DNA from: a phage
Sequence record: PV730301.1
Length of the DNA stretch: 44,881 nucleotides
Direction: 5' to 3' (one strand)
Shown here: positions 6,131-42,028 of the stretch, piece after piece
Layout of the letters: each line of letters starts with the position of its first letter
Position numbering within the stretch: position 1 is the stretch's first letter
Notes under the pieces: generated by a model
Told to the model about the DNA's origin: nothing
Database searches by the model: none
What the model saw: only the letters and a program-made list of their open reading frames with translations
Program-made: the position numbers and the translations under genes

Positions 6131-6160
6131 TTTAAACTCCTTCATTGTTGGTGTAAGTGA

Positions 6161-6189
6161 ATAGTACCCTATTATATTGGGGTGCGCAA
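6161..6189 (-). promoter_or_regulatory. sigma70-like promoter for the Imm/phosphoesterase operon (TTGCGC-17-TACTAT) containing the conserved TGAATAGT..CTATTATA element
   Basis: Hexamers and 17-bp spacing read from the sequence; the 23-mer is identical to 41997..42019. Confidence 0.45.
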
Positions 6190-6296
6190 GTAGTGTGCTA
6201 GAATAAGTTTGCGCCTAGTGTCGCACACGAAAAGCGGGTGGTTCCCGTCTGGCGCATTAACCTTAACCTGTAACCTCTTAACCAAAGGATTAAAGA

Positions 6297-6713
6297 ATGA
6301 AACTTTCTGATTTTTATTTCGAAGAGAAAGCACTGGTGGGCAAGAAGATGCCTATTCTCCTGCCAAATGGCGAAGACTCAGGTGAGTGGCTTAACGTCGT
6401 AAGTCCTGACGCCGATGTCGCCGTTAAAGCAGGGCGTGCTTTCATTATCGCGTACCGCCGTGGGCTGGCGCGTTTTGAAGAACTGGAAAAGGCCGCCAAA
6501 GAATCCGGCGACTATACTGAATATAACCTGGCGGTTAACGAACTGGCTGAAGACCTCAACCGACAACTCGCGGCGGAAGTCGTAAACGGCTGGAGCTTTG
6601 ATGAGCCTTTCTCTAAAGAAGCATTTAACAAATTGCTGGGCCAGTTCAAGGCATTAGGGACACAGGTGGCCGCGTTCCATAACGCCGAGCGCAAAGCATT
6701 ACAGGAAAAGTAG
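6297..6713 (+). CDS. tail assembly chaperone (gpG-like)
   Basis: Position immediately upstream of the tape measure gene; AAAGGA RBS; overlapping -1 frame ORF downstream. Confidence 0.5.
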   Translation: MKLSDFYFEEKALVGKKMPILLPNGEDSGEWLNVVSPDADVAVKAGRAFIIAYRRGLARFEELEKAAKESGDYTEYNLAVNELAEDLNRQLAAEVVNGWSFDEPFSKEAFNKLLGQFKALGTQVAAFHNAERKALQEK

Positions 6714-6745
6714 ACGCGCTGTACAGGTTCGCCACCTACGAGTTT

Positions 6746-7078
6746 GTGGATAAGCATAAAATCAGAGAGTTTGATTCTATAGCCGACGGACACGAACAGG
6801 CGCTTATCGCGATGGGTGTAATCGATAAGAAAAAACGTGCAGCGCGACGGGGTGGGCCAGAATGCCCGCCCCTTTTTATATCCACCTTTGAGACGTACTG
6901 TGACATTAAGTTTACGCGACACGTGCGTGAGGACGCTGTAGTATTGTTTGCAAGAGAATCTGTTACGTGGCAAGACCTGAAAGCCTATCTCGATGTTACG
7001 CAAAAACAGCTTAGCCTGTTCGAGATAGACATTATCATGGGCTTAGAAGCAATCTTTGAAGGTAGAAATCATGGCTGA
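6746..7078 (+). CDS. putative frameshift extension of the tail assembly chaperone (gpT-like)
   Basis: ORF in the -1 frame, open from 6683 and overlapping the chaperone 3' end; no own SD; ends inside the tape measure start. Confidence 0.35.
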   Translation: MDKHKIREFDSIADGHEQALIAMGVIDKKKRAARRGGPECPPLFISTFETYCDIKFTRHVREDAVVLFARESVTWQDLKAYLDVTQKQLSLFEIDIIMGLEAIFEGRNHG

Positions 7079-9494
7079 TACCGCTAGTTTAATAGTACGA
7101 GTATCATCGACCGGCGTCGATAAAACCACATCACAACTGAACGGGCTTACTAAAGCCGCAGGCGCTGCGGCTGCCGCCGTTGTCAGTCTGGAAACCGCCA
7201 AGCAGGTGTTCAGTGCGCTGGTGGAGTCTCAGCGCAACTTCGATAAGCTGAACTCCGGCCTTATCACAATGACCGGGAGCGCCAAGAACGCGGCTAAGGC
7301 TTTCAGTGTCCTGCAACAGTTCGCAAAAGAAACTCCGTATGGCCTCAATCAGGCGGTAGAGGGGTTTACCAAGCTCGTGGCTCTCGGTCTTAACCCAAGC
7401 AAAGAGGCGCTGATTTCCTACGGCAACACCGCAGCGGCTATGGGTAAAGACCTTAATCAGATGATTGAGGCCGTAGCGGACGCCAGTACATTTGAATTTG
7501 AGCGACTGAAAGAGTTTGGCATTAAGTCGTCACAGCAGGCGGATACAGTTTCGTTCACGTTCCGCGGTGTCACCACCACGGTTAAAAAGAACTCCGAAGA
7601 GATTCAGAAATACCTGTTAAACATCGGCAACACCGATTTCGCCGGGGCGATGGAGACGCGCTCGAAGACATTAGATGGTCAGTTGTCGAGCCTGGCAGAC
7701 TCTTTCGATGGCCTTGTACTCGCGGTGGCGCAATCCGGTTTTGGCGATGCCGTAGGCGAACAAGCGGCGACAGCGGAAGATGCTATCACGGCACTCACCG
7801 ACGCCATCGCGTCTAATGAGATAGCCGCTACGCTCCAGGATTGGGTAACGCTGTTCAATGAATCGTTCAAGTTTATTTCTGATGCCTTAAACGACCTGGC
7901 ATACGATACCGAGGACAAATCCGCGGACATGTCAGACTCGCTGGGGACTATCCCGGACGCTATCCGTGAGTGGTTGCCTGATATACAGCAGACATTTCAC
8001 GAGGTTATTGCGTGGTTCCAGCGCATTGACGATTACGCCGTAGCGTTAGGTCAGACTCTTGCCGACGTGTTCGACCCAAGCAAAACGGCAGCGCTCACAT
8101 TTAAAAACCTGACCGCAGAGGCCGACGCCGCATACGCTGCCAGCATAAAACGCGCAGAGGCCGAATCACAGGCCATCACCAACAGGTCTAAGCAGCGTAA
8201 GAAAGAAATTGAGGAACAGCGCAAGCAGTACGACGAGCGCAAGAAGCAAGAAATTGACTTAGCCAGCCTTGTTAATAAAAATGGCGGAACTGGCGGAACC
8301 GGAAATACCAACGACAAAGACGCGAAAGCCGCTGCTAAGAAAGCGGAGCAATTGCGCAAACAGGCCCAGGATTATCTGGACACTTTGGCGCGTCAGAACA
8401 ACGATGAGTTAAAGGCTATTGACGCGCAGGAACAGCAGAAACTTAAAGAGGCCGCTAAATACCGAAAAGAAGGGGCGCTAACCGCTGAAGAGTATGAAAA
8501 GGCGAAAACCGCAATAGTTCTTCAATACGGACAAAAGCGCCAGGACGCTCTTGATAAAGAGTTAGCCGAGGAGCAGAAAAAACTGCAACAAGGCGTGGCT
8601 GTTCTGGCGTCAATCGACCCTATCGCAAACTTACAGCTCGAGCGGCAGAAGAGACTCGCAGTTATAGAGGAATACGAGGCCCAAGAAAACTCAGTACATG
8701 AAGTCGCGTTACAGGCGCGGGCGGAACTGGACAAGCAATATAACGATGGGCTGGCTGCCGCCGCCGAGGAGCGTTTCCGCAACCAATCCGAATGGAACAA
8801 CATGTTAATGGACTCCCTCGATGCGGTTGGCGCATCTGCATCCAGTTCCATAGTCGGTCTTATTAACGGCACACAGACCGCGAGTGAGGCAATGGCAAAC
8901 TTGGGCAACGCTATTCTATCCTCAGTCGTTTCAGGGTTAACACAGATGGGAGTGGAGTACCTGAAAAACATGATTATCGGCCAAACGGCATCCGCAGCGA
9001 CTATAGCGACCGCATCGGCTACCGGAGCGGCGATTGCCGCAGCGTATGCCCCCGCCGCGGCTATGGCGTCCCTGGCGTCATTTGGGGCCAACAGTGTTCC
9101 AGCTATGTCGGGCATCACAACCACGGTGGCGAGTACCCAAGCGTTAGCCTTAACTGGATTCCGCGAACAAGGCGGCCAAATGAACGCTGGCGGCAGCTAT
9201 CTTGTTGGTGAGCGTGGCCCTGAGATTATTAAGATGGCGGGGGCAGGGCGTGCGGTTAACTCAAGTCAAACACGGCAACAGTTAAGTGGCAACAATAGCG
9301 GAAATAGTGGACCATCTAATGTTACCATTGTAAATAACACATCGAGTCATATTGGCAACGTATCCACTGAGCAGGATGATGAGGGGCGCTTGCGTATCAT
9401 TATCTCTGAGCAGGTGGCTTCTGAGCTAATGAACAGCAACAGTCGGATTAGCAAGGCCCGCAAGTCTACGCGAAATGCACCTGGCTTTAAGTGA
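7071..9494 (+). CDS. tail tape measure protein
   Basis: About 800 aa, Ala/Gln/Lys-rich coiled-coil character, follows the chaperone pair; GAAGGT RBS before ATG 7071. Confidence 0.85.
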   Translation: MADTASLIVRVSSTGVDKTTSQLNGLTKAAGAAAAAVVSLETAKQVFSALVESQRNFDKLNSGLITMTGSAKNAAKAFSVLQQFAKETPYGLNQAVEGFTKLVALGLNPSKEALISYGNTAAAMGKDLNQMIEAVADASTFEFERLKEFGIKSSQQADTVSFTFRGVTTTVKKNSEEIQKYLLNIGNTDFAGAMETRSKTLDGQLSSLADSFDGLVLAVAQSGFGDAVGEQAATAEDAITALTDAIASNEIAATLQDWVTLFNESFKFISDALNDLAYDTEDKSADMSDSLGTIPDAIREWLPDIQQTFHEVIAWFQRIDDYAVALGQTLADVFDPSKTAALTFKNLTAEADAAYAASIKRAEAESQAITNRSKQRKKEIEEQRKQYDERKKQEIDLASLVNKNGGTGGTGNTNDKDAKAAAKKAEQLRKQAQDYLDTLARQNNDELKAIDAQEQQKLKEAAKYRKEGALTAEEYEKAKTAIVLQYGQKRQDALDKELAEEQKKLQQGVAVLASIDPIANLQLERQKRLAVIEEYEAQENSVHEVALQARAELDKQYNDGLAAAAEERFRNQSEWNNMLMDSLDAVGASASSSIVGLINGTQTASEAMANLGNAILSSVVSGLTQMGVEYLKNMIIGQTASAATIATASATGAAIAAAYAPAAAMASLASFGANSVPAMSGITTTVASTQALALTGFREQGGQMNAGGSYLVGERGPEIIKMAGAGRAVNSSQTRQQLSGNNSGNSGPSNVTIVNNTSSHIGNVSTEQDDEGRLRIIISEQVASELMNSNSRISKARKSTRNAPGFK

Positions 9495-9539
9495 TAATAT
9501 GGATATTAGGTTAACATCCAATCTACCGAGGTTCTAATA

Positions 9540-13472: not shown

Positions 13473-15698
13473 ATGTCAAGCGGATGCGGTGACGTTTTAA
13501 GCCTGGCGGATTTACAAACCGCCAAGAAACACCAGATTTTTGAAGCTGAGGTTATTACAGGGCGCCAGGGTGGGGTGGCTAGTGGTGATTTCATTGACTA
13601 TGCCACTAATCAGGTTACTGGTCAGACGCAGAAGACGTTACCCGCCGTGTTGCGTGACGCAGGATTTTCTCCGGTTTCGTGGGACTTTTCTACAGGCGGG
13701 ACATTAACTGTTAACGACCGTGATAAAGTGGTGTACGACCCAGTTAGCCAAACATGGTACTCGTACGCCGGTACGCTACCTGTTACAGTTCCCGTTGGTT
13801 TTAACCCGGTAGGTAATACGGACTGGAAACCGCAGACAGACCCGTATTTACGTGACGACCTTAAATCTGAACAAGGCGCAGCGCTAATAGGGTCATTCCC
13901 TTCAGTAGCGGCATTAAAAGCCTTAGCCGATTTATCCCCTTTTTCTGACGGAGACAGAGTGGTAGTCCGTAGTTTCCTGGCTGGGTATAACGTGGGTGGT
14001 GGGATTTTTCAGTGGCACCCACTTGCGACAACCGCCGATGATGGGTTCTCTGTTATCCGACCTTCGTCAGTAACTGGCGCTGGTCGATGGATTAACATTA
14101 AACGCGGCAGGTTAACCCCGGAAGAATGCGGGTGCGTACCTAATGACCCGTCTTTTGACAATGGTGTGGCACTTAACAGATGGGCGTCACAGCAGCACTG
14201 TATCGGTTCCGTAGGAACATTCTATAAAACCACGGCGTTAATACCGTCTCCGCCAGCGTACCCGCAGTATATAGCTGCTAAGGGTATGCGGCTGATGACT
14301 ACCATAGCTGACGTAAACGGGGTGGAACTTCCAAAAGACACATCCCGCAGAATAATTATCGAAGGGCTGGAATCGTTTGTTGATTATTCGCTAACAGCCA
14401 CAGACAGAAATAAGGCAAACGGTTTTTACATCGCGGGTAGCCGTGAAGTAACGTTAAAGGATATCCGTTGTGAGGGGTGGAAAAACGCTGGTGTCTGGTG
14501 GTTTGAAGTCAACAGCATGACCATAGATGGTTTTGTTGGGTGGCGAAATGATTGGGACGGCTCCTCGCTATTTGCCTCTGGCGGTGATTTGGTTGAGTGG
14601 ACTTCGCCTACCGGTGTGGCAAAATCATGCAGCATAACTAATTTCTTATGTCTTTCAGATTCTAGCCAGAGCGTCTCCATTAACACATTATCTGTTGGGC
14701 GAAATATACTAATCAGTAACGGACGCTGTTTCACGTATGACGCTACAGATTTTACACCAAAAGAACATTCTAACATAAAAGCACGCCACGGAATTACTAT
14801 AGGCTACAACTCTAACCATCCATACGGTGGGGGTATCAAAGTCAGCAATGTCATTATCAGAGATAAGGGATGGACAGGGATTTACCGTTCTGGTGGTTTA
14901 GACGGCGCCGTGAGGTATCAACCTGCTACCATTTCTAATGTCTCCATTTACGATTGCGGGTTCGGGGTAAACGAAGATAACATTGGTGCCGGTATTCTGT
15001 TTGGTGACGTAGTGGACGGAGACATGATCAACAACTGTTATGTTGAAGGGTTCGCCAACGCTAATAACGGTGCGTATAAAATTCAGGATTCTGTAGGTAC
15101 AGGGAAGCTGACAATAGCTAACTGTGTGGATAAGGGTTCCACGGGCTACGGTGTGCATATAGCGACAGAATCGGTTAACGTAATGGTTATTGGGCACAGA
15201 AGCATAGAACCTACTGGCGCTGGAATTTTTCTTGAGCCAAAAGGCGGCGCAACACTATTCCGGTTTCATACTATTGACGGATGTCGTATTGAGCGCGCGA
15301 CTGACGGTTACGGAATATTTGTGTCTAGCGGCGTAATTCGCGCAAATATTAAAAACAACGAAATCCATGGTACTTCTACGGACTCAACTTCAAACTGCGC
15401 TATTCGTGTAATCCAAAACGGGCAATCCATAAATATAAGAGGTAATCAAATTTATGGTTTTGCATACGGGTTGTGGTACAACACTTACGTAGATACCACG
15501 ACAGTATTCCCGTGGGGTAACAACCAGTTCTTCGGCTGCATTAACGCGCACCGTTTCGCAAGGACAACCGGCACCAGCGTAGCCAAGGTAGAACCAAACT
15601 ACTATGACGGGGCTACTACAAACCGGTTTTCTAACGGTGGCGTGGGTACAAGTAACGGAACGGAAGAATTCAGAGTTAATGGAGTGCCCGTAACGTAA
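13473..15698 (+). CDS. tailspike with right-handed beta-helix (polysaccharide depolymerase-like)
   Basis: 741 aa; repeated NxxG/IxG-rich C-terminal region typical of pectate-lyase folds; last gene of the tail operon. Confidence 0.7.
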   Translation: MSSGCGDVLSLADLQTAKKHQIFEAEVITGRQGGVASGDFIDYATNQVTGQTQKTLPAVLRDAGFSPVSWDFSTGGTLTVNDRDKVVYDPVSQTWYSYAGTLPVTVPVGFNPVGNTDWKPQTDPYLRDDLKSEQGAALIGSFPSVAALKALADLSPFSDGDRVVVRSFLAGYNVGGGIFQWHPLATTADDGFSVIRPSSVTGAGRWINIKRGRLTPEECGCVPNDPSFDNGVALNRWASQQHCIGSVGTFYKTTALIPSPPAYPQYIAAKGMRLMTTIADVNGVELPKDTSRRIIIEGLESFVDYSLTATDRNKANGFYIAGSREVTLKDIRCEGWKNAGVWWFEVNSMTIDGFVGWRNDWDGSSLFASGGDLVEWTSPTGVAKSCSITNFLCLSDSSQSVSINTLSVGRNILISNGRCFTYDATDFTPKEHSNIKARHGITIGYNSNHPYGGGIKVSNVIIRDKGWTGIYRSGGLDGAVRYQPATISNVSIYDCGFGVNEDNIGAGILFGDVVDGDMINNCYVEGFANANNGAYKIQDSVGTGKLTIANCVDKGSTGYGVHIATESVNVMVIGHRSIEPTGAGIFLEPKGGATLFRFHTIDGCRIERATDGYGIFVSSGVIRANIKNNEIHGTSTDSTSNCAIRVIQNGQSINIRGNQIYGFAYGLWYNTYVDTTTVFPWGNNQFFGCINAHRFARTTGTSVAKVEPNYYDGATTNRFSNGGVGTSNGTEEFRVNGVPVT

Positions 15699-17797: not shown

Positions 17798-18719
17798 TTA
17801 CCGCCCCCATGAATGCCTTTATAAATTCAGCGGCTACTTGCGGGACGATGGCATTGCCATAACCGCGCAATCGTCCCACTCTGGCGGGTATCCCATTAGC
17901 CAGCGGGAATGTGCCGGGTTCAACTGGCCTGAATTTCCCATCCCGGCATCCGAGCCAGTCAGCATCTGACCAGAAGCTGTGATGCGGATTGGCCGCGATA
18001 TTTTCAGTCCCTGCTCCGTTGAGTAGCCCAGCCTGTCGAATGTTCTGTCTTTTCCGTCCTTGCGAATAACTGTCTCTCCGCTCCCTCTGTAATCGTTCGC
18101 GGTCGGCGTCGCCCATGCCGCCATCGCGGCTGCCCACCCCAGTTTGTTCGGTTTCGTCCTGCCGTCTGTGCTGCGCATGTTCACGTCGTTTGTTATCAGT
18201 GATACCGCCGGTGTGGGCCAGTCTGTGCGCTCCGAAGAACAGCCTGTCGCGTTTGTGCGGTGCGCCGACGCTACAAGCTGGGAGTACGGCAAACCCGACG
18301 GCGTAGTCTTCTCTTTCCAGGTGAGTTTGTAAATCGCACATCCACGATTTTGCAATTGCTGGCGCAACCTGTTCCCCAAAGAGGACTGGAGGGCGGCACT
18401 CGCTGATGAGGTCGAGGAACACAGGTGCGAGGTGTCTCGGGTCGAACTGTCCGAGTTGTTTTCCCGCCGCGCTAAACGGTTGGCAAGGCGGGCTTCCCGT
18501 CCAGAGAGGCGTATCTTCCGGAACTCCCGCAAGTCTGAGCGCGAGAGGCCAGCCGCCGATACCAGCGAAAAAATGACACTGAGTGAATCCGTCGAGGTCT
18601 TCTGGCTTAACTTTGGTAATACTTCTTTCATCTACAACTCCAAAAGGTATATGCCCCTGTTTTATTAATTCACGCAGCCACGCGGCTGCGCCTCTATCCC
18701 ATTCGTTGTAATAGTTCAT
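17790..18719 (-). CDS. DNA (cytosine-5)-methyltransferase
   Basis: Motif I FAGIGG and motif IV PCQPFS are diagnostic of C5 methyltransferases. Confidence 0.7.
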   Translation of the reverse strand: MNYYNEWDRGAAAWLRELIKQGHIPFGVVDERSITKVKPEDLDGFTQCHFFAGIGGWPLALRLAGVPEDTPLWTGSPPCQPFSAAGKQLGQFDPRHLAPVFLDLISECRPPVLFGEQVAPAIAKSWMCDLQTHLEREDYAVGFAVLPACSVGAPHKRDRLFFGAHRLAHTGGITDNKRREHAQHRRQDETEQTGVGSRDGGMGDADRERLQRERRDSYSQGRKRQNIRQAGLLNGAGTENIAANPHHSFWSDADWLGCRDGKFRPVEPGTFPLANGIPARVGRLRGYGNAIVPQVAAEFIKAFMGAVNE

Positions 18720-18907
18720 TTCGCCACCAGAACCAGCTCTTTACGCCCGAACGCCGTAACGTTGCCTGTTACATCTTCGATAACCAGTTTACCGTTCGAC
18801 TCGACGTACACCGTATCAACGGCAACAGGACGACGGGTCTTAACGTTGAAAATCATGTCTCCAGGTACGATGTCACGTGCTGGTTTGCGGTCATATTCGT
18901 GTTTCAT
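18716..18907 (-). CDS. hypothetical protein
   Basis: ATGA coupling to the methyltransferase gene; promoter immediately upstream. Confidence 0.5.
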   Translation of the reverse strand: MKHEYDRKPARDIVPGDMIFNVKTRRPVAVDTVYVESNGKLVIEDVTGNVTAFGRKELVLVAK

Positions 18908-19226
18908 TTCTCAATTCCTTATATTGTTGGTGTGTGTGATTACTATAATAGCCCGCTATTAGGTCGTCAACCTGTTTAAACGAACCAACGACAAAAACAT
19001 TTGCGCCTCGTTTACGCATCCTCTCGTGTTCACGTATTTGGTGCGGGTCTGGCTTCGTGTTTTCATCCTTCTTCACCTCGACGAACCAGACGATGCCGCC
19101 GGGGAGAATTATCAGCAGGTCGGGGGCGCCCACTCTATTTTCGTACGACAATTTGCGTACGAGGCCACCGATGGCCTCGAATCGCTCTTTTGCGTATTTC
19201 TGGATGCGCCCCTCAGGCGTACTCAT
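18891..19226 (-). CDS. VRR-NUC domain nuclease
   Basis: GAPDLLII...FVEVKK pattern typical of VRR-NUC. Confidence 0.65.
   Translation of the reverse strand: MSTPEGRIQKYAKERFEAIGGLVRKLSYENRVGAPDLLIILPGGIVWFVEVKKDENTKPDPHQIREHERMRKRGANVFVVGSFKQVDDLIAGYYSNHTHQQYKELRNETRI
18942..18970 (-). promoter_or_regulatory. sigma70-like promoter (TTGACG-17-TATAGT) with the conserved element, embedded in the 3' end of the VRR-NUC gene
   Basis: Hexamers and spacing read from the sequence; same architecture as 23052..23081 and 26055..26083. Confidence 0.5.
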
Positions 19227-22995: not shown

Positions 22996-23051
22996 CTTGA
23001 TTTCTCGCTTTTCAAAGTTTACTCCGGGAAGCTGCCCGGCCAGTGATTAGA

Positions 23052-23081
23052 ACTATAATAGCTAACTATTCAGGTTGTCAA
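23052..23081 (-). promoter_or_regulatory. sigma70-like promoter (TTGACA-18-TATAGT) with the conserved element
   Basis: Intergenic; hexamers read from the sequence. Confidence 0.5.
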
Positions 23082-25333: not shown

Positions 25334-25846
25334 TTATTCTTCTTCGAAATACTTGTTCTTGATTGCCGTCAGGCGTTCCAGGTACTCAACCAGGTCTTCG
25401 TCTTTAATTGCAGCAATCTTCATCTTCTTACCAGTGAACTCTTCCAGCAGTTCATCAGAATCATCACACGCGGCATCACTCGGACCTTCGTTAATTGCGT
25501 CGTCGATAGCCTGAATCTGGTCACGAAGAGACTTATAATCGACTTCTTCTTTCTCTTCTTCCGGCTCTGGCGTAGGTTCCTCTACTTTAGCTTTACGCGG
25601 CTTGCGTTTCGGCTTCTCTTCTTCTTCTGCCGGTTTAGTGTCGACGATGTCTTCACCTTCGACCGGGATTTCTTTCCCGATGCCTGTACCCGGGTCGACC
25701 TCAAGTACCTCGCCAGTAACCGATACGTCTACAAGCATTTCACCCGCACGCTCAACCGGCGGAACCGGACGTTTCACACTATTTGCGGCAATCAGTTCAT
25801 GTGCAACTACGAAACGCTCCAGTAATTTTAAGAATTGGTCTAACAT
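25334..25846 (-). CDS. hypothetical acidic Glu/Asp-rich protein
   Basis: ORF with strong acidic low-complexity region; coupled to the upstream small gene. Confidence 0.45.
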   Translation of the reverse strand: MLDQFLKLLERFVVAHELIAANSVKRPVPPVERAGEMLVDVSVTGEVLEVDPGTGIGKEIPVEGEDIVDTKPAEEEEKPKRKPRKAKVEEPTPEPEEEKEEVDYKSLRDQIQAIDDAINEGPSDAACDDSDELLEEFTGKKMKIAAIKDEDLVEYLERLTAIKNKYFEEE

Positions 25847-26022
25847 TATTTGTTCTCCTGTTCGGCGATATTGTTAAGTTCTTTAAGAATGTCTTTCTGC
25901 ATGTTTTCTGGTAAGTATAAGAATGCTTGAGTAATCATGCCTTTAACGCTTCCGCGGCCTTCTAAGATGAAGTTGGGGAACCACACTTTCCAGTTAGCAT
26001 CATAATCTTTACGTTTAGCCAT
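25846..26022 (-). CDS. hypothetical small protein (58 aa)
   Basis: GAGAGGAGAGA RBS; first gene downstream of the early promoter. Confidence 0.45.
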   Translation of the reverse strand: MAKRKDYDANWKVWFPNFILEGRGSVKGMITQAFLYLPENMQKDILKELNNIAEQENK

Positions 26023-26054: not shown

Positions 26055-26083
26055 ACTATAATAGCAAACTATTCACATGTCAA
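26055..26083 (-). promoter_or_regulatory. sigma70-like early promoter (TTGACA-17-TATAGT) with the conserved element
   Basis: Hexamers read from the sequence; a second weaker copy (TTGATA-17-TAATTA) at about 26099..26127. Confidence 0.5.
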
Positions 26084-26147
26084 TGGGCTTTTCTAAAATA
26101 ATTAATATGGTACTATTCACATATCAACCGACTAAGGAGTAATTGAC

Positions 26148-26363
26148 ATGCAACCATCTGAACTAGGCATCCGCGTAGAACAACGCCGCAAAGAACTCGG
26201 CATCTCCCAGCGCCGTCTGGCTGTCCTGGCTGGTGTTTCCCAGGGCGCAATTAACCAGCTGGCACTTGGAGTAACTCAGGACGTCCGCCCGGCGACGCTG
26301 TTTAAACTGGCGGAAGTGCTGCAAGTAGACGCTAAGTGGCTGGCATTCGGTGAAGGGGCTTAA
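26148..26363 (+). CDS. XRE-family HTH transcriptional regulator (Cro/CI-like)
   Basis: ELGISQRRLAVLAGVSQGAINQLALG helix-turn-helix; AAGGAG RBS; only plus-strand gene within the minus-strand block. Confidence 0.75.
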   Translation: MQPSELGIRVEQRRKELGISQRRLAVLAGVSQGAINQLALGVTQDVRPATLFKLAEVLQVDAKWLAFGEGA

Positions 26364-28680: not shown

Positions 28681-28914
28681 TTATTCCAGGTCTTCTAAAG
28701 TGGCCGTCATTCCGCGAACTTCAGCAACGGCACTATATTTCCCGCCAACATTTTTCACGACACCGGATTTAACCAGTACACGTAACGACCCTTCAATGAT
28801 GGCGGAACTATAGTACTTAAAATAACTACGGCGCAAGTCGATAACGCTGCACGACCCTTTTTTACGTGTTAACGAAACGACCGCCGTAAATACGCGTGAC
28901 TGGAACTCGGTCAT
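28681..28914 (-). CDS. hypothetical protein with C-terminal TLEDLE tail
   Basis: ATGA coupling to the upstream AlpA-like gene. Confidence 0.5.
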   Translation of the reverse strand: MTEFQSRVFTAVVSLTRKKGSCSVIDLRRSYFKYYSSAIIEGSLRVLVKSGVVKNVGGKYSAVAEVRGMTATLEDLE

Positions 28915-29081
28915 TTCACGTTCTCCTTAATCCACGCTTCCACTTTCTCCGGGTCGAACGTACCTGGCTGGCGGCGGCCCATAATGCGAATACAACAATC
29001 GGGGAACTTCCCACTCTTTAACCAGTTATTCAGTGTGCGGCGAGTAACCCCGATACGCTCAGCTACTTCATTCTGTGTCAT
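28911..29081 (-). CDS. AlpA/excisionase-family HTH regulator
   Basis: MTQNEVAERIGVTRRTLNNWLKSGKFP matches the AlpA-type HTH; start placed at ATG 29081. Confidence 0.6.
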   Translation of the reverse strand: MTQNEVAERIGVTRRTLNNWLKSGKFPDCCIRIMGRRQPGTFDPEKVEAWIKENVK

Positions 29082-29113
29082 TCTCAAACCCCCATTATCA
29101 GTTAACGAAACCA

Positions 29114-29142
29114 AGTATACATTGTGAATAATGGGAAATCAA
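29114..29142 (-). promoter_or_regulatory. sigma70-like promoter (TTGATT-17-TATACT) for the AlpA-primase operon
   Basis: Hexamers read from the sequence; spacer carries an ATTATTCACA variant of the conserved element. Confidence 0.45.
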
Positions 29143-29511
29143 ACATAATCGCACCTATTGACATTATGAAAATCTTCGTTTAAGGTGCTTCTGTATCTTA
29201 GTTACTTTGATTCCTGTTCACCTTGTAAGAATGTTTAACCCGTGCGTCAAGCAAAGGGTTAAACACAGGCTTACTGAACATTCGAATTATCGTAACTTTC
29301 CTTCCTTAGTATCTCAGGTTGCCCTGGGCAAGCTCTATTCTCATCGGCAGCTTATCTCTTAAGTATCTGATTTTCTTAATGTGCCGTAGATTCGCAACCG
29401 TAAAAATGTAACGATTATTGGGCAGGCTTAAGGCCTGCCCTTTAGTTACCAAGTAATAAGAATAAAGGCACAACCATCCCTGAAAAATCACAACGGCAAC
29501 GTAACCATCTC

Positions 29512-29540
29512 TTGCACACCCCGACATAATAGGATACTAT
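29512..29540 (+). promoter_or_regulatory. sigma70-like promoter (TTGCAC-17-TACTAT) with the conserved element
   Basis: Hexamers read from the sequence; same architecture at 30871..30899. Confidence 0.5.
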
Positions 29541-29568
29541 TCACTTATCAAAACGAAACCGAGGAGCG

Positions 29569-29766
29569 ATGGTTATGTTTAAGAAGGGTCAATTGGCTAA
29601 AACTAAACGTGGAGGGCAATATGTATTAGTGTTGCAGGACTAGAACGAGTATGACCAGGATAATCTGGTTGACGTATGGGGTCTGGTAAGAAAGAAAACT
29701 GGGTTCGCCTTACGCGATAATTTAGAACTCATCGGCAACAATTTTAAATTCAAAGGGGTGAAGTGA
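29569..29766 (+). pseudogene. small ORF interrupted by an in-frame TAG at 29641 (amber allele, readthrough or sequencing error)
   Basis: GAGGAG RBS; 24 codons, TAG, then 40 more codons ending in TGATG coupling to the next gene. Confidence 0.35.
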
Positions 29767-30521: not shown

Positions 30522-30722
30522 ATGAGCGAGTGGGTTAAGTGCCGCGACAGGATGCCGGAATGTTTTACGGATGTGCTGGTTTCTGACGGTTCCTATGTAG
30601 AAGTTATGACGCTGCTTGGCGACGGCACCTGGCTTGCGCTGCTGGGGGATTGGGCTACATGTGTTTCTGTTGACAGGATAACTCACTGGATGCCGTTACC
30701 CGAGCTGCCACCCCCGGTATAA
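30522..30722 (+). CDS. DUF551-like protein
   Basis: W..C.D..P....VLV.DG......HWMPLPELPPP pattern typical of DUF551; AGAGGA RBS. Confidence 0.55.
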   Translation: MSEWVKCRDRMPECFTDVLVSDGSYVEVMTLLGDGTWLALLGDWATCVSVDRITHWMPLPELPPPV

Positions 30723-30755
30723 CAGGTCAATAGGTTACTATTTGGCTTTGTGTCT

Positions 30756-30790
30756 TACGCTGCTACACAGCAGCGTATCATTTTTCTCAT
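30756..30790 (+). terminator. rho-independent terminator
   Basis: 9-bp stem TACGCTGCT/AGCAGCGTA followed by a T-rich tract. Confidence 0.6.
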
Positions 30791-30870: not shown

Positions 30871-30899
30871 TTGCACACCTGGATATAATAGCCTACTAT
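30871..30899 (+). promoter_or_regulatory. sigma70-like promoter (TTGCAC-17-TACTAT) with the conserved element
   Basis: Hexamers read from the sequence. Confidence 0.5.
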
Positions 30900-30930
30900 T
30901 CATTTACACAAACGAGAGGAGAGACAGAAG

Positions 30931-33537: not shown

Positions 33538-33846
33538 TTGGATAAATTTACTGAAACAGTGACAGGGTGGCTTCTCGCCGCCGCACTAGCCGGAGGGGTC
33601 ATCGGGCTACGACAACATAAGTCCGTTATTTCTGGCCCCATCGACGGGTTCTGCTTTATTGCAACTGGCTTCACCTGCGCCGTATTTGGCGCACCTCTCG
33701 CAGCTCAATGGTTCGGCATTACCGGCGAACGCGAAATAGCTGGCCTCGGATTTATCATCGCTGTTCTCTGGATGCCTATCTATTCCCGCCTTTCTGGCAT
33801 CGTCGCCGGAGAATACATCGCACGTCGAGGAGGCCCGGATGAATGA
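33538..33846 (+). CDS. holin (three predicted TM helices), TTG start
   Basis: Hydrophobic segments; position before the endolysin; GGAGGA 6 nt before the only available start (TTG). Confidence 0.55.
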   Translation: MDKFTETVTGWLLAAALAGGVIGLRQHKSVISGPIDGFCFIATGFTCAVFGAPLAAQWFGITGEREIAGLGFIIAVLWMPIYSRLSGIVAGEYIARRGGPDE

Positions 33847-34111
33847 GTTATTCTGGTTCGGCGGTATGCTGGCAATCGGAGGCACATCGCTGTTTAACGT
33901 GTATCATCCCAGCGTTGACGACGGATTATTTGGCCGTGTGCTCTATATCCTGACCGCTATTGTCTGCGCCGCCGGGTGTATCCACCTGTTACAGGGCAGC
34001 ATGTCACCAACGCTGCCCGAGACCTTAATTACATTAGTTGCGCTGCGCCAGATTCGCCAGGCGTGGCTGTCATACGGAGGACATAAGCGTGTCTCGAAAT
34101 ATTTCAGATAA
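33839..34111 (+). CDS. holin/antiholin-like membrane protein
   Basis: Two hydrophobic segments; ATGA coupling; lies between holin and endolysin. Confidence 0.45.
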   Translation: MNELFWFGGMLAIGGTSLFNVYHPSVDDGLFGRVLYILTAIVCAAGCIHLLQGSMSPTLPETLITLVALRQIRQAWLSYGGHKRVSKYFR

Positions 34112-34577
34112 TGGGTTGCATTTCACTGCCGCGTTCGAGGGGTTCCGCGGAACTGCGTATCGCGCTACACCGAATGAGAAGTACCTGACTATTGGGTATG
34201 GAAGCTATGGCCCGCATGTTAAGGCTGGACAGACCATCACGCCGGGGCAAGGCCTCCTGTTACTTAACCGTGATATGGCTAAGGCCGTGGCTGCGGTTGA
34301 TGCAGCGGCGCACCATTCACTGACACAGGCGCAGTTCGATGCCGTGTGCGACCTGGTCTACAACGCCGGTGCAGGCGTGATTGCCGCTACTACAGGCACA
34401 GGTAAGGCGCTGCGCTCAGGTGATACCGTGACGCTGCGGGCCAAGCTGGCACTGTTCATCAACCAGAACGGCAAACCGTTACTTGGCCTGCGTCGCCGTA
34501 CTGCGGGTCGTCTTGCACTGTTCGACGGTAAACCGTGGCAGGAGGCGGAGGCTATCGGGCGCGCGGTGAAAGGTTGA
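34089..34577 (+). CDS. endolysin, GH24 lysozyme (P22 gp19-like)
   Basis: FEGFRGTAYRATPNEKYLTIGYG and QFDAVCDLVYNAG match the phage lysozyme pattern; GTG start with GGAGGA RBS. Confidence 0.8.
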   Translation: MSRNISDNGLHFTAAFEGFRGTAYRATPNEKYLTIGYGSYGPHVKAGQTITPGQGLLLLNRDMAKAVAAVDAAAHHSLTQAQFDAVCDLVYNAGAGVIAATTGTGKALRSGDTVTLRAKLALFINQNGKPLLGLRRRTAGRLALFDGKPWQEAEAIGRAVKG

Positions 34578-34675: not shown

Positions 34676-34697
34676 ATCTATTTTCTGTTATGACTAG

Positions 34698-34726
34698 TTG
34701 ACTATTACATTCGACCCTACTATATT
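34698..34726 (+). promoter_or_regulatory. sigma70-like promoter (TTGACT-17-TATATT)
   Basis: Hexamers and spacing read from the sequence; upstream of 34761. Confidence 0.5.
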
Positions 34727-36641: not shown

Positions 36642-36645
36642 TACA

Positions 36646-38552: not shown

Positions 38553-38564
38553 GAGGATTATTCA

Positions 38565-40046: not shown

Positions 40047-40056
40047 GTTCACATAT

Positions 40057-40079
40057 AGCCCCGAAAGGGGCTTTCTTAT
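40057..40079 (+). terminator. terminator-like hairpin (possible attenuator inside the head operon)
   Basis: AGCCCC-GAAA-GGGGCT hairpin followed by TTCTTAT. Confidence 0.45.
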
Positions 40080-40082
40080 AGT

Positions 40083-41159
40083 ATGCTATTAACTTTAGCG
40101 CCACAGGGTTTATTTATGAGCTTACTTACATCACTAATCAGCCACCAGATATGGCTGCAACGCACCGCATCCGGCGAAGTGAAAGACCTCGCGCCGTTCA
40201 TTCAGGAGATGCGGGACGAAATAAAACGGCAGGTGCTGCTATTCGGCGACGACGGGCGCAGCACTGCGCGACTGAATAAACTGTTACGTGACCTCGAAGA
40301 AGCGCTAACTGGACTTACAGGCGACTGGCAAACAAAGCTGACAGAAGACCTTAAGGAACTGGCGGCGTATGAGGCTGAGTGGAACGTAAAGACACTGACC
40401 GCCAACGTTAACGCGGAATTTGTTACACCTACGGCCGAGCAGGTGTGGGCCGCAGCCGAGTTTCAACCCTTATCGTTAAGCGACAAGCCCGTTGACTTCA
40501 CTAAGCTGATGTCTGGCTGGGGTGAAACGGAGGTTGCGCGCCTTGTAACGGGCGTTAAGATGGGTTTCGCACAAGGCCAGACAACACGGCAGATTGTTAA
40601 GAATGTTGTAGGCGCTGGTGGACTAGCCAACATCTCTGAGCGTAACGCAGCTACAGTAATCCGCACCGCGCTGTCCCACGTATCCAACGAAGCCCGTAAT
40701 GAGACGTACCGCCAGAACGACGACATCATTGAGAAGTACGAGTGGGTGTCGACGTTGGACAGCCGCACCAGTACAATTTGCAGAGCCAGAGACGGAATGA
40801 CGTGGGAAATCGGAAAAGGGCCGATGCCGCCAGCGCATCCGAATTGTCGGTCATGCACGGCCCCTGTGATTAGCTCGGAGTTCGACTTCCTGGATAAAGG
40901 CGCAAAACGCGCGGCTAAAGGCGCAGACGGCGGAGCCCAGGTAAGCGCGGGCACCACTTACTACGAGTTCCTGAAACAGCAACCGGCATGGTTTCAGGAC
41001 CAGGCGCTTGGTCCTGTTCGCGGTAAGATTTTCCGTAACAGCGGTATATCGCCGGAAGAGTTTCGCGTAATATCTGTAGATGGTTTCGGGAATCCGCTCA
41101 CGCTTAGGCAGATGGCGGAACTCGATAAACGTGTTGCTGATTATCTGAAAGGGGAATAA
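40083..41159 (+). CDS. head morphogenesis protein (Mu F / SPP1 gp7-like)
   Basis: Position after the portal; size. Confidence 0.55.
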   Translation: MLLTLAPQGLFMSLLTSLISHQIWLQRTASGEVKDLAPFIQEMRDEIKRQVLLFGDDGRSTARLNKLLRDLEEALTGLTGDWQTKLTEDLKELAAYEAEWNVKTLTANVNAEFVTPTAEQVWAAAEFQPLSLSDKPVDFTKLMSGWGETEVARLVTGVKMGFAQGQTTRQIVKNVVGAGGLANISERNAATVIRTALSHVSNEARNETYRQNDDIIEKYEWVSTLDSRTSTICRARDGMTWEIGKGPMPPAHPNCRSCTAPVISSEFDFLDKGAKRAAKGADGGAQVSAGTTYYEFLKQQPAWFQDQALGPVRGKIFRNSGISPEEFRVISVDGFGNPLTLRQMAELDKRVADYLKGE

Positions 41160-41620
41160 TGATGGGCTTTTTCAAAGTAACTGATGTGCCGTCGCGTCGC
41201 GTAGTTCAGTATGCTCGCGTGTCTGGCTCTGGTGAGAACGTGGTGTTTATCGAAGATGAAAGTGTACTCGGTACACCAGTAGACGACATGCCGTTTGCGG
41301 ACAAGACCGGTATTGCGTTGCCTGCGGCGGGTATGCTTTACGAGATTCCGTATCTGGCGGACGCCGGTGACGTGTACTTCTCTTTGCAACCGCAGGACGC
41401 TGAACTGGCAGACGGCAGCGCAACTATCACTGTCGAAGTTAAGGCAGGCAAAGCACCCTATGCGCTGACCTGGTACAAAGACGGTAAGGAAGTGGTAAAC
41501 GCCCCGGAAGAGGCTCTGTCTCTGACGGTTAACGCCGCGGGCGAATACTTCGTTAAAGTTACCGATGCCGATGGTGTAGAGGCCGTGAGTAAGGCGGCGA
41601 AGGTCACTAAGCCAGAATGA
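41159..41620 (+). CDS. Ig-like domain protein
   Basis: C-terminal PYALTWYKDGKEV...GEYFVKVTDADG parallels the Ig-like region of the 44741 gene. Confidence 0.55.
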   Translation: MMGFFKVTDVPSRRVVQYARVSGSGENVVFIEDESVLGTPVDDMPFADKTGIALPAAGMLYEIPYLADAGDVYFSLQPQDAELADGSATITVEVKAGKAPYALTWYKDGKEVVNAPEEALSLTVNAAGEYFVKVTDADGVEAVSKAAKVTKPE

Positions 41621-41623
41621 TAA

Positions 41624-41651
41624 AAGGCCCCTTACGGGGCCTTAGATTTTT
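41624..41651. terminator. rho-independent terminator between convergent genes
   Basis: AAGGCCCC-TTAC-GGGGCCTT hairpin followed by ATTTTT. Confidence 0.65.
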
Positions 41652-41956
41652 CCTATTAGTTTTTTAATTCTATCGCGTTCTATTCTTTTCCCTTCTTCTA
41701 CTCCATCATTGAAGTATCTTTCCGCGTCTTCCTTGTTGGACTTACGAACTGCTGCACCATCTCTATATAGCTCTTGATTGTCACGTAACACCCTAATCTT
41801 AGCTATTATTTCGTTAAAAGGTGCGTCAGCACGTACTTTAAGCATAGACCTTACCTGTTCTACGAACCAAGCAAAATCAGGCTTTTTCGCTAATTTCTCT
41901 CTTAAAACAGCGTTCTCTTGTTCCGCTTTTGTGGCGCGAGCACGATAATCAACCAT
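41642..41956 (-). CDS. hypothetical charged coiled-coil protein (lone minus-strand gene in the late region)
   Basis: ORF with its own promoter and terminator. Confidence 0.5.
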   Translation of the reverse strand: MVDYRARATKAEQENAVLREKLAKKPDFAWFVEQVRSMLKVRADAPFNEIIAKIRVLRDNQELYRDGAAVRKSNKEDAERYFNDGVEEGKRIERDRIKKLIGKI

Positions 41957-41999
41957 TTTAGTAAACCTCTATTTTTATTAAATAACACCGATGTGATGA

Positions 42000-42028
42000 A
42001 TAGTACCCTATTATATTGGTGTCTGCAA
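42000..42028 (-). promoter_or_regulatory. sigma70-like promoter (TTGCAG-17-TACTAT) with the conserved 23-mer
   Basis: Same 23-mer as at 6158..6180. Confidence 0.45.

What the first reader, a model, noticed from the sequence alone, without database searches (positions are those of the whole stretch)
6158..42028. One conserved quasi-palindromic promoter/operator element reused at seven or more operon starts
Seen in sequence: an identical 23-mer TGAATAGTACCCTATTATATTGG occurs at 6158..6180 and 41997..42019. Close variants TGAATAGT-N3-CTATTATAGT sit at 18942..18970, 23052..23081 and 26055..26083, each just after TTGAC(A/G), giving minus-strand TTGACA-17/18-TATAGT promoters. The mirror form (C/T)ATAATAGG-N-TACTATTCA preceded by TTGCAC lies at 29512..29540 and 30871..30899, giving plus-strand TTGCAC-17-TACTAT promoters. 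Every copy is immediately upstream of an operon start, and one is inside the 3' end of the VRR-NUC gene. All contain an AATAG-N4-CTATT inverted repeat. Inference: a phage promoter family with a built-in operator for a phage-encoded regulator, for example the XRE HTH at 26148 or the AlpA-like HTH at 28911.
Basis: partly seen in the sequence, partly recalled or inferred. Interest (0 to 1): 0.65.

Follow-up and report, generated by a model that had tools for sequence, protein, structure and literature searches.

The report
Shared operator in Kagunavirus early promoters
A 14-bp palindrome (AATAG-N4-CTATT) sits inside the core of eight host-type promoters of this virulent E. coli phage and is most likely the binding site of the phage's own small 434-Cro-like repressor; this is an ordinary kind of phage control circuit, and the motif has already been listed in papers on sister phages.

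Summary
AATAG-N4-CTATT occurs 8 times in the window (0.04 expected). A ninth copy with one mismatch lies in front of the XRE gene. Eight of the nine overlap sigma-70-like promoters just upstream of a ribosome-binding site and a gene start.

The window is a complete Kagunavirus (Guernseyvirinae) genome. The sites are kept at equivalent positions in all 38 Kagunavirus and 12 Jerseyvirus loci examined. The half-sites are essentially invariant there, while the central 4 bp and the flanks drift.

The XRE protein (26148-26363) is a full-length homolog of phage 434 Cro, which binds 14-bp dyad operators of the same layout. Its own promoter carries a copy. More distant relatives with diverged Cro-like proteins carry different 14-bp palindromes at the same promoter positions (AATAC-N4-GTATT; ATTAG-like). 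The AlpA-like HTH is missing from one Kagunavirus that keeps all its sites.

Best reading: host-RNAP early and middle promoters with an embedded Cro-type operator, repressed and autoregulated by XRE. Binding and transcription start sites are untested.

The motif itself was already published as PHIRE "phage promoters" for fBC-Eco01 and Golestan. One of those papers assigned it to a phage RNA polymerase that these phages do not encode. This is a new member of a known kind, of modest interest.

The parts
6161..6189 (-). Class-A promoter with operator: TTGCGC (6189-6184), 17-bp spacer, TACTAT (6166-6161). The palindrome AATAGTACCCTATT is at 6160-6173. It drives the superinfection-immunity-like ORF (5939-6145) and the DNA-repair exonuclease cassette.
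   Evidence: orthologous copy in Bas73 at 14284 and in SE2 at 33752
18942..18970 (-). Class-B promoter with operator: TTGACG, 17-bp spacer, TATAGT. The palindrome at 18947-18960 lies in the spacer. It is inside the 3' end of the VRR-NUC-like ORF and drives 18716-18907, the methyltransferase gene and the helicase gene.
   Evidence: a site is present in 33/33 Kagunavirus and 12/12 Jerseyvirus loci that cover this position
23052..23081 (-). Class-B promoter with operator: TTGACA, 18-bp spacer, TATAGT, palindrome at 23057-23070. It drives the ssDNA-binding/annealing protein gene and the DNA polymerase gene.
   Evidence: 34/35 Kagunavirus and 12/12 Jerseyvirus loci
26055..26083 (-). Class-B promoter with operator: TTGACA, 17-bp spacer, TATAGT, palindrome at 26060-26073. 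It drives the leftward operon (25846-26022 through the exonuclease gene) and is divergent from the XRE gene.
   Evidence: 38/38 Kagunavirus loci
26104..26117 (+). Operator copy with one mismatch, AATATGGTACTATT, overlapping the -10 (TACTAT, 26111-26116) of the XRE gene's own promoter. The mismatch creates a TG at -15/-14, that is, an extended -10. There is no recognisable -35.
   Evidence: the site is present in 38/38 Kagunavirus loci and reads AATATGGTACTATT in 37 of them
26148..26363 (+). XRE/HTH_3 gene, 71 aa, a homolog of phage 434 Cro. This is the proposed operator-binding repressor.
   Evidence: PDB 434 Cro E=4.9e-7 over residues 6-68; Pfam HTH_3 E=1.2e-12; PHROG transcriptional repressor
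29512..29541 (+). Class-A promoter with operator: TTGCAC, 17-bp spacer, TACTAT, palindrome at 29528-29541. It marks the start of the rightward early operon.
   Evidence: 34/34 Kagunavirus loci
30729..30742 (.). Orphan perfect palindrome AATAGGTTACTATT with no -35 and no downstream RBS. It lies between the stop codon of 30522-30722 and the terminator at 30756-30777.
   Evidence: perfect in 10 of the 31 Kagunavirus sequences listed at this spot (the window included), one mismatch per half-site in 2 (AAAAG...CTAAT), and right half replaced (G[GTA]GAT/GGGAC/GGGCT) in the other 19
30871..30900 (+). Class-A promoter with operator: TTGCAC, 17-bp spacer, TACTAT, palindrome at 30887-30900. It drives the second rightward operon (small ORFs, HslV-like peptidase, holins, endolysin).
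   Evidence: 30/30 Kagunavirus loci
42000..42028 (-). Class-A promoter with operator: TTGCAG (42028-42023), 17-bp spacer, TACTAT (42005-42000), palindrome at 41999-42012. It drives the ORF 41642-41956.
   Evidence: Bas73 copy at 5160
34693..34726 (+). Candidate weak operator ACTAGTTGACTATT (one mismatch) whose centre and right half contain the -35 of a TTGACT-17-TATATT promoter upstream of the NinH/terminase region. Its status is uncertain.
   Evidence: a site with at most one mismatch is kept in 21/23 Kagunavirus loci and, with a different mismatch, in Jerseyvirus SE2
42090..42123 (+). Candidate weak operator AATAGTTGACTTTT (one mismatch) overlapping the -35 of TTGACT-17-(TGc)TAAGCT upstream of the spanin, scaffold and capsid genes. 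Its status is uncertain.
   Evidence: the same promoter is listed as host promoter HP1 in fBC-Eco01

Best explanation
The repeated element is a family of host sigma-70 RNA polymerase promoters that drive the non-structural operons of a virulent Kagunavirus. These operons are the two rightward early operons, three leftward replication operons, two small reversed cassettes inside the structural region, and the regulator gene itself.

Each promoter contains one 14-bp dyad operator, AATAG-N4-CTATT.
- In class B (TTGACR-17/18-TATAGT) the operator fills the spacer, at about -25 to -12.
- In class A (TTGCRC-17-TACTAT) it covers the -10, at about -19 to -6.

The proposed binder is the phage's 71-aa 434-Cro-like XRE protein acting as a dimer, with one recognition helix per AATAG half-site. 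Occupying these positions would exclude RNA polymerase. XRE would therefore act as a Cro-type repressor that damps or shuts off early and middle transcription as it accumulates. It would also autoregulate through the weaker copy at its own extended -10 promoter.

Shown here: the motif, its positions, its conservation, the homology to 434 Cro, and the matching geometry. Inferred: promoter activity, XRE binding, and the sign of regulation (repression).
For: Enrichment and position:
- 8 perfect copies against 0.04 expected, and the top palindrome in the genome.
- Fixed registers relative to the -35 and -10 hexamers, and an RBS plus start codon 25-50 nt downstream.

Conservation:
- Orthologous sites are present in 33/33, 34/35, 38/38, 38/38, 34/34 and 30/30 Kagunavirus loci. 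The three leftward sites scored (helicase, SSB/polymerase and left -88) are present in 12/12 Jerseyvirus loci each.
- The half-sites are invariant or nearly so (a minority base at one position in some sites), while the central N4 and the flanks vary.

The binder:
- XRE's best PDB match is 434 Cro (E=4.9e-7, residues 6-68 of 71), followed by 434 repressor.
- From established knowledge, 434 operators are 14-bp dyads with conserved outer bases and a variable centre. The enumerator used here recovered TACAA-N6-TTGTA next to the 434-type Cro genes in lambdoid loci, which serves as a positive control.
- The Gln equivalent to 434 Gln28, which contacts base 1 (A), is invariant in the alignment. Base 1 of the half-site is A in every clade.
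- The XRE gene is divergently arranged, with two copies in its control region.

Covariation:
- Lineage L053 (XRE 43% identical, different recognition helix) has AATAC-N4-GTATT at four promoter positions.
- Cornellvirus-like phages have ATTAG-type sites.
- The degenerate pattern is about 10-fold enriched in every Guernseyvirinae-like clade and absent from unrelated phages with XRE homologs.

Exclusions:
- Jerseyvirus and Cornellvirus-like phages both infect Salmonella yet differ in motif, which argues against a host factor.
- No RNA polymerase gene is annotated in the close relative Bas73.
- The only other recognisable DNA-binding ORFs are an HTH_17 protein and a NinH-like protein.

Expression timing: an HTH gene is among the four early genes in the RNA-seq study of Kagunavirus K1B4 (PMC12645636).
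Against: - No binding data and no mapped 5' ends exist.
- Kagunavirus and Jerseyvirus share the same AATAG operator although their XRE proteins are only about 51% identical. They differ at presumed base-contacting positions of helix 3 (SQGAINQ versus SQSLITH). The protein-operator covariation is therefore suggestive, not clean.
- The right half-site overlaps or abuts the -10 element in every register, so part of its conservation could be a promoter constraint.
- Class-A promoters are weak consensus matches (7 of 12).
- One-mismatch copies also overlap the -35 of two apparent late promoters. This does not fit a simple early-off switch.
- No prophage with a close XRE homolog and a classical cI/cro operator cluster was found that could confirm the specificity independently.
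Confidence: 0.6

Rival explanations
1. The palindrome has no separate regulator. It is part of a duplicated promoter, 5'-UTR and RBS cassette, and it is conserved because RNA polymerase itself needs those bases (AT-rich spacer and -10-like hexamers).
For: The repeat unit extends beyond the palindrome into the 5' UTR and RBS (TCAyTTAcac..AACGAGAGGAG). The right half-site supplies -10 bases in three different registers: TACTAT, TATTGT and T+ATAGT. Class-B promoters are near-consensus and need no factor.
Against: The left half-site lies in the spacer, where sigma-70 makes no base-specific contacts, yet it is as invariant as the right one. The same dyad is used in two registers 6 bp apart and in opposite orientation of its asymmetric flanks. 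Both half-sites changed together in L053, from G/C to C/G. A perfect copy at 30729 exists without any promoter.
Confidence: 0.15
2. The AlpA-like HTH_17 protein (28911-29114) binds the palindrome, as an activator or as a Q/AlpA-type antiterminator loaded at the promoter.
For: It is an HTH DNA-binding protein (Pfam HTH_17 E=2e-7). It is 71-100% identical across Kagunavirus and Jerseyvirus, which share the motif. Its own promoter lacks the palindrome. Many intrinsic terminators lie inside the operons.
Against: Kagunavirus locus L031 lacks the gene, which is replaced by 149-aa and 47-aa ORFs, but keeps 6 perfect sites. The Cornellvirus-like and L053 lineages lack it within 10 kb of the XRE gene but keep palindromes at the same promoter positions. 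From established knowledge, small Xis/AlpA-type proteins do not typically read 14-bp perfect dyads.
Confidence: 0.07
3. Another factor binds the palindrome: either an unrecognised small phage protein or a host transcription factor.
For: Most early ORFs have no recognisable domain. XRE binding is unproven.
Against: The motif differs between Jerseyvirus and Cornellvirus-like phages that share Salmonella as host, which argues against a host factor. Multi-copy occurrence is confined to contigs of about 41-45 kb, the size of Guernseyvirinae genomes, in IMG/VR; several of them are the same contigs as the Kagunavirus and Jerseyvirus loci, and other hits are single, at chance level. To my knowledge no E. 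coli regulator has an AATAG-N4-CTATT consensus. XRE is the only canonical dimeric-operator type of HTH protein in the genome.
Confidence: 0.13
4. The sites are promoters for a phage-encoded RNA polymerase, as stated for the same motif in the fBC-Eco01 paper.
For: PHIRE reports the 20-mers, and the paper labels them 'Phage RNAP promoter' (PMC9825357).
Against: No RNA polymerase gene is present in the annotated relatives. The large ORFs in the window line up with the tape measure, tail, tailspike, DNA polymerase, helicase and primase genes of Bas73. The sites carry sigma-70 -35 and -10 hexamers at 17±1 bp. PHIRE only finds repeated 20-mers.
Confidence: 0.02

Closest known systems
Phage 434 Cro / cI with the 14-bp OR and OL operators (ACAA-N6-TTGT)
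   Same: The regulator is a full-length sequence homolog of 434 Cro. The operator is a 14-bp dyad with conserved outer bases and a variable centre. Operators overlap promoter core elements. The regulator's own promoter carries an operator.
   Different: There is no cI partner, no integrase and no tripartite operator clusters. Instead there are 8-9 single operators dispersed over a strictly virulent genome, each embedded in a different promoter and in two registers. The half-site sequence is different (AATAG).
PHIRE-predicted 'phage promoters' of Kagunaviruses fBC-Eco01 (consensus tgAATAGTa-ccTATTat-T) and vB_EcoS-Golestan
   Same: It is the same motif at the same genomic positions; several 20-mers are identical to those in this window.
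   Different: In the passages I read, those papers list the sequences without noting the dyad symmetry, the embedded -35 and -10 hexamers or a link to the Cro-like gene. One attributes them to a phage RNA polymerase that the phage does not encode.
Mycobacteriophage L5 'stoperators' (many repressor sites dispersed through a genome)
   Same: A single phage repressor with many sites spread over the genome, mostly in short intergenic regions.
   Different: As I recall the literature, stoperators are asymmetric 13-bp sites, orientation-biased, act on elongation, and belong to a temperate immunity system. Here the sites are symmetric, lie within promoter cores, and the phage is virulent.
Bidirectional promoters arising from -10 symmetry (Warman et al. 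2021)
   Same: AT-rich, near-symmetric sequence around the -10. Two sites (6160, 41999) lie in divergent intergenic regions.
   Different: The dyad is not the TAnnnTA overlap of two -10 hexamers. In the reverse orientation there is no consistent -35 or -10 (my inspection; mixed scores).

Membership tests
Sigma-70 (host RNAP) phage early/middle promoters | -35 TTGACA-like and -10 TATAAT-like hexamers separated by 17±1 bp | tested here: met
   Class B matches 10-11 of 12 positions. Class A has TTGCRC-17-TACTAT, 7 of 12, with the key TTG and TAnnnT bases present but below the scan threshold.
Sigma-70 (host RNAP) phage early/middle promoters | Located just upstream of a 5' UTR, an RBS and the first gene of a co-oriented gene block | tested here: met
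   8 of 9 copies.
Sigma-70 (host RNAP) phage early/middle promoters | Transcription start 5-9 nt downstream of the -10; rifampicin-sensitive transcription | not testable with these tools
   The only RNA-seq on a relative (K1B4, PMC12645636) gives gene-level time classes and no 5' ends.
434 Cro/cI-type (HTH_3) repressor-operator system | Regulator homologous to 434 Cro or 434 repressor | tested here: met
   PDB 2cro/3cro E=4.9e-7, residues 6-68 of 71; 434 repressor E=1.2e-5; Pfam HTH_3.
434 Cro/cI-type (HTH_3) repressor-operator system | 14-bp dyad-symmetric operator with conserved outer bases and a variable centre | tested here: met
   AATAG-N4-CTATT. The half-sites are invariant or nearly so and the centre is variable across 38 Kagunavirus loci and 12 Jerseyvirus loci.
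434 Cro/cI-type (HTH_3) repressor-operator system | Operators overlap promoter core elements, including the regulator's own promoter | tested here: met
   Operators lie at about -25 to -12 or -19 to -6. The copy at 26104-26117 overlaps the -10 of the XRE promoter.
434 Cro/cI-type (HTH_3) repressor-operator system | Operator sequence co-varies with the regulator's specificity | tested here: inconclusive
   L053 has AATAC-N4-GTATT, Cornellvirus-like phages have ATTAG-type sites, and 434-type Cro loci have TACAA-N6-TTGTA. However, Kagunavirus and Jerseyvirus share AATAG despite different helix-3 residues.
434 Cro/cI-type (HTH_3) repressor-operator system | Paired cI repressor and clustered tripartite OR/OL operators (lysis-lysogeny switch) | tested here: not met
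   No cI-like or integrase gene in the annotated relatives. Operators are single and dispersed; the only pair is at 26060 and 26104.
434 Cro/cI-type (HTH_3) repressor-operator system | Direct sequence-specific binding of the protein to the operator | not testable with these tools
   Needs EMSA, footprinting or ChIP.
Promoters of a phage-encoded single-subunit RNA polymerase (label used in PMC9825357) | The phage encodes an RNA polymerase | tested here: not met
   None in the Bas73 or SE2 annotation. The large ORFs of the window line up with genes of other assigned function in Bas73.
AlpA/Xis-type HTH_17 regulator as the binder | The gene co-occurs with the motif | tested here: not met
   L031 lacks the gene but has 6 perfect sites. 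The Cornellvirus-like and L053 lineages lack it but keep promoter palindromes.
Bidirectional promoters from -10 symmetry | Overlapping -10 hexamers on opposite strands (TAnnnTA) and a -35 on both sides | tested here: not met
   Class A reads TACTATT. The reverse orientation gives -35 matches of 3 of 6 or fewer at most sites and often lacks T at -7.

The most novel reading that the evidence does not exclude
A whole subfamily of strictly virulent phages (Guernseyvirinae) may time most of its transcription with a single Cro-only circuit. One 71-aa 434-Cro-like repressor would read single operators built into several different registers of otherwise ordinary sigma-70 promoters: -12.5 and -18.5, possibly -15.5 in some relatives and -33.5 at the weak late-promoter sites. 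Operator specificity would have drifted between genera (AATAG, AATAC, ATTAG). That would provide a natural set of small, potentially orthogonal repressor/operator pairs, and an example of a lysogeny-switch protein repurposed as a global lytic-cycle regulator.
Probability: 0.4. Interest if true: 0.5.

Novelty: new member of a known kind. Interest (0 to 1): 0.3.

Why it matters
If XRE does bind these sites, the early and middle programme of Kagunavirus and Jerseyvirus would be controlled by one tiny repressor and a 14-bp site. These are common E. coli and Salmonella phages, widely proposed for therapy and biocontrol and used as synthetic-biology chassis.

That would give a simple handle for engineering expression timing. 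It would also correct the published annotation of these sites as phage-RNA-polymerase promoters. Conceptually it is a familiar Cro-type repressor/operator design. The only unusual aspects are the dispersed single operators and the absence of a cI partner in a virulent phage.

Tried and rejected
- Reverse-orientation promoters at class-A sites. I looked for a consistent -35 and -10 on the opposite strand. Only 29528 gives TTGATA, and its -10 lacks T at -7 in this window. I rejected this as a general feature.
- Prophage relatives of XRE. A scan of bacterial genomes for a close homolog inside a classical cI/cro region, which would have revealed its operator independently, found only relatives of at most 59% identity over short segments in unrelated MAGs.
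- IMG/VR scan for AATACNNNNGTATTATAGT, to find relatives of L053. It returned chance-level single hits and an unrelated AT-rich contig (L285). It is useful only as a chance-level control.
- Literature search for the literal motif strings found nothing relevant.
- The K1B4 RNA-seq paper has no 5'-end resolution, and the BASEL paper says nothing about regulation.
- Rfam has no hit anywhere in the window.
- Host-factor idea. I know of no E. coli regulator consensus that matches, and the motif differs between Salmonella phages of different genera.
- An RNA-level role for the palindrome. I rejected this because the dyad lies upstream of the predicted transcription starts and its stems are only 5 bp.
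Full report
**Observation.**
The 23-mer TGAATAGTACCCTATTATATTGG occurs at 6158-6180 and 41997-42019, with none expected in shuffles. The core AATAG-N4-CTATT occurs eight times against 0.04 expected. It is the most over-represented 5-Nn-5 palindrome in the window; the next ones are GC-rich terminator stems.

Allowing one mismatch adds four sites against about 1.2 expected. The most important is AATATGGTACTATT at 26104-26117, 30 nt upstream of the XRE start codon.

**What the window is.**
The window is a complete, circularly permuted genome of a Kagunavirus (Guernseyvirinae). It is 88-92% identical to K1G, Bas73, Bas74, SZH-1 and others. Gene order follows Bas73:
- structural genes on the plus strand;
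- three leftward replication operons (helicase and methylase; DNA polymerase and SSB; exonuclease);
- a leftward AlpA-like and helicase-primase operon;
- rightward early and lysis genes;
- two small reversed cassettes inside the structural region.

No RNA polymerase, integrase or cI-like gene is annotated in Bas73 or in the Jerseyvirus SE2.

**Anatomy.**
In promoter orientation the sites fall into two classes.
- **Class B** (18947, 23057, 26060; all minus strand): TTGAC(A/G), 17 or 18 bp, TATAGT. The dyad lies in the spacer and its last T is the first base of the -10, so the dyad spans about -25 to -12.
- **Class A** (6160 and 41999 on the minus strand; 29528, 30887 and the XRE copy at 26104 on the plus strand): TTGC(A/G)(C/G), 17 bp, TACTAT. 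The -10 lies inside the right half of the dyad, which spans about -19 to -6.

Only the 14-bp dyad is common to both.

Class-B promoters are the three best sigma-70 matches in 17-32 kb. Class-A promoters keep TTG and TAnnnT but match only 7 of 12 positions and are not picked up by the consensus scan.

Each promoter is followed by a short 5' UTR, a strong Shine-Dalgarno sequence and a start codon. The XRE promoter has no -35. Its single operator mismatch (G to T) creates TG at -15/-14, that is, an extended -10. The 30729 copy has no -35 and no gene; it lies between a stop codon and a terminator.

**Conservation.**
I collected 80 IMG/VR loci around XRE homologs, plus Bas73, SE2, FSL SP-031, St162 and a lambdoid Klebsiella phage. 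Sites with at most one mismatch are present at the orthologous positions in Kagunavirus loci as follows:

| Position relative to the XRE start | Loci with a site |
|---|---|
| about -6.5 kb | 33/33 |
| about -2.7 kb | 34/35 |
| -88 | 38/38 |
| -44 | 38/38 |
| about +3.5 kb | 34/34 |
| about +4.8 kb | 30/30 |

In Jerseyvirus, the three leftward sites that were scored (helicase, SSB/polymerase and left -88) are each present in 12/12 loci. The raw position lists show further sites to the right of the XRE gene in every Jerseyvirus locus that extends that far.

Within Kagunavirus the half-sites are invariant or nearly so; at some sites a minority of loci carry a different base at one position. The central four bases and the flanks vary, for example AATAG[CGAA/CTAA/CAAA/TGAA/CGAG]CTATT at -88. 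That is the footprint expected of an operator read by a symmetric dimer.

The orphan 30729 site is different. It is perfect in 10 of the 31 Kagunavirus sequences listed at that spot.

In IMG/VR, multi-copy occurrence of the extended motif is confined to contigs of about 41-45 kb, the size of Guernseyvirinae genomes. Several of them are the same contigs as the Kagunavirus and Jerseyvirus loci. Other hits are single and at chance level.

**Who binds it.**
The XRE protein's best match among solved structures is phage 434 Cro (E=4.9e-7, residues 6-68 of 71), followed by 434 repressor. From established structural work, 434 Cro and repressor bind 14-bp dyads with conserved outer bases and a non-contacted variable centre (ACAA-N6-TTGT). 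This is the same layout as AATAG-N4-CTATT.

As a positive control, the same palindrome enumerator returned TACAA-N6-TTGTA in lambdoid loci that encode 434-type Cro proteins. Those operators are visible between cI and cro of Klebsiella phage RCIP0098.

The Gln corresponding to 434 Gln28, which contacts adenine 1, is invariant in the XRE alignment. Base 1 of the half-site is A in every clade. The XRE gene is divergently arranged, with two copies in its 125-bp control region.

More distant relatives keep the architecture but change the dyad.
- Locus L053 (XRE 43% identical, helix TQGGIGH) has AATAC-N4-GTATT. There are two perfect and two one-mismatch copies in 12.7 kb, all in -35/-10 contexts, which is a symmetric change of both half-sites.
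- Cornellvirus-like St162 and SP-031 have ATTAG-type, more degenerate sites.
- The degenerate pattern A[AT]TA[GCT]-N4-[AGC]TA[AT]T is about 10-fold enriched in all Guernseyvirinae-like clades. It is absent from unrelated phages that merely carry an XRE homolog.

Because Jerseyvirus and Cornellvirus-like phages share Salmonella as host but differ in motif, a host factor is unlikely.

The AlpA-like HTH_17 protein is a poor candidate. Kagunavirus locus L031 has replaced it with unrelated ORFs yet keeps six perfect sites. The Cornellvirus-like and L053 lineages lack it. Apart from a NinH-like protein, no other early ORF has a recognisable DNA-binding domain.

The weak point is that Kagunavirus and Jerseyvirus share AATAG although their XRE proteins are about 51% identical and differ in helix 3 (SQGAINQ versus SQSLITH). 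The covariation is therefore supportive but not clean.

**Mechanism.**
A dimer bound at -25 to -12 or at -19 to -6 would block sigma-70 region 2/3 contacts and open-complex formation. This is an inference from the positions.

The most likely function is Cro-type repression. Strong host-recognised promoters fire on entry. XRE, reported as an early gene in a relative (PMC12645636), then accumulates and turns down the early and replication operons. It limits its own synthesis through the weaker operator.

Two apparent late promoters carry one-mismatch copies whose centre and right half contain the -35 (AATAG-TTGA-CTnTT). They are TTGACT-17-TATATT at 34698 and TTGACT-17-TAAGCT at 42095. Whether these are occupied is open. 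If they are, XRE would be a global damper rather than a pure early-off switch.

**Comparison with what is known.**
The motif is not new as an observation.
- The fBC-Eco01 genome paper lists seven 'phage RNAP promoters' with consensus tgAATAGTa-ccTATTat-T. They include TGAATAGTACCCTATTATAT twice and TGAATAGTACCATATTAATT, which is the XRE-promoter copy (PMC9825357).
- The Golestan paper lists seven PHIRE sequences such as TAATAGGGTACTATTCATTA (PMC7203180).
- In the passages I read, neither paper notes the dyad, the embedded sigma-70 hexamers or the Cro-like gene. The 'phage RNA polymerase' attribution cannot be right, because no such gene exists.

The system works like a Cro/operator circuit and meets the family features that could be tested: homology, operator geometry, promoter overlap and an autoregulatory copy. 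It lacks a cI partner and clustered OR/OL operators. I therefore rate it a new member of a known kind, of modest interest.

**Limits.**
Everything about function rests on sequence. No 5' ends, no binding data and no genetics exist for this phage group as far as the searchable literature shows. A search for prophage relatives that might reveal the operator specificity independently found none.

Noticed in passing
window 29150-29500 (+): A gap of about 400 bp between the AlpA-like gene and the 29528 promoter has a TTGACA-17-TAAGGT promoter-like site (about 29160) and an intrinsic terminator (29420-29440). The stretch 29195-29450 folds far better than shuffles (z=-6.4). Its 3' part of about 170 nt is almost identical between Kagunavirus and Jerseyvirus, while a 5' hairpin varies in sequence. 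There is no Rfam hit. It could be a structured ncRNA or a replication or other cis element. Bas73 annotates a minus-strand CDS there.
   Followed up: partly
window 30729-30742: A perfect operator palindrome with no promoter, between a stop codon and a terminator, 158 bp upstream of the 30887 operator. It is polymorphic: perfect in 10 of the 31 Kagunavirus sequences listed at that spot. Its function is unknown; it could be an auxiliary or looping site, or a relic.
   Followed up: partly
window 23024-23039 (-): The 5' UTR of the ssDNA-binding/annealing protein gene contains the hairpin CCGGGCAGCTTCCCGG. It is conserved in Kagunavirus and Jerseyvirus, and slightly variant forms are kept in the Cornellvirus-like and L055 lineages despite divergence of the surrounding sequence. 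It may be a translational or stability operator.
   Followed up: no
window 26104-26117: The single mismatch in the XRE-promoter operator (AATAT instead of AATAG) creates a TG at -15/-14, that is, an extended -10, in a promoter with no -35. The site reads AATATGGTACTATT in 37 of the 38 Kagunavirus loci; one has AATATGATACTATT.
   Followed up: yes
window 34693-34726 and 42090-42123: Two apparent late-operon promoters share TAGTTGACT. In both, a one-mismatch operator-like dyad contains the -35 hexamer (AATAG-TTGA-CTnTT). They are conserved in Bas73, and the first is conserved with a different mismatch in Jerseyvirus SE2.
   Followed up: partly
window 29569-29645: The first ORF after the 29528 promoter is only about 24 codons here (MVMFKKGQLAKTKRGGQYVLVLQD*). 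Relatives encode a protein of 63-64 aa (L031 13843-14037; Bas73_0056). The gene appears disrupted in this genome.
   Followed up: no
L031 12559-13144: One Kagunavirus contig has replaced the AlpA-like gene and the adjacent 77-aa gene with a 149-aa ORF and a 47-aa CxxC...CxxC zinc-ribbon ORF. It keeps all operator sites.
   Followed up: partly
L001 (Bas73, PQ850603.1) about 34027-34240: The GenBank record does not annotate the XRE/Cro-like gene although an ORF 94% identical is present. A short minus-strand ORF (34042-34137) is annotated instead.
   Followed up: partly
window 40077-40090: TATAGTATGCTATT is a one-mismatch copy overlapping the start codon of the head-morphogenesis gene, just after a terminator. 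It is also listed by PHIRE in the Golestan paper and conserved in Bas73. It shows no promoter features, and its significance is unclear.
   Followed up: no
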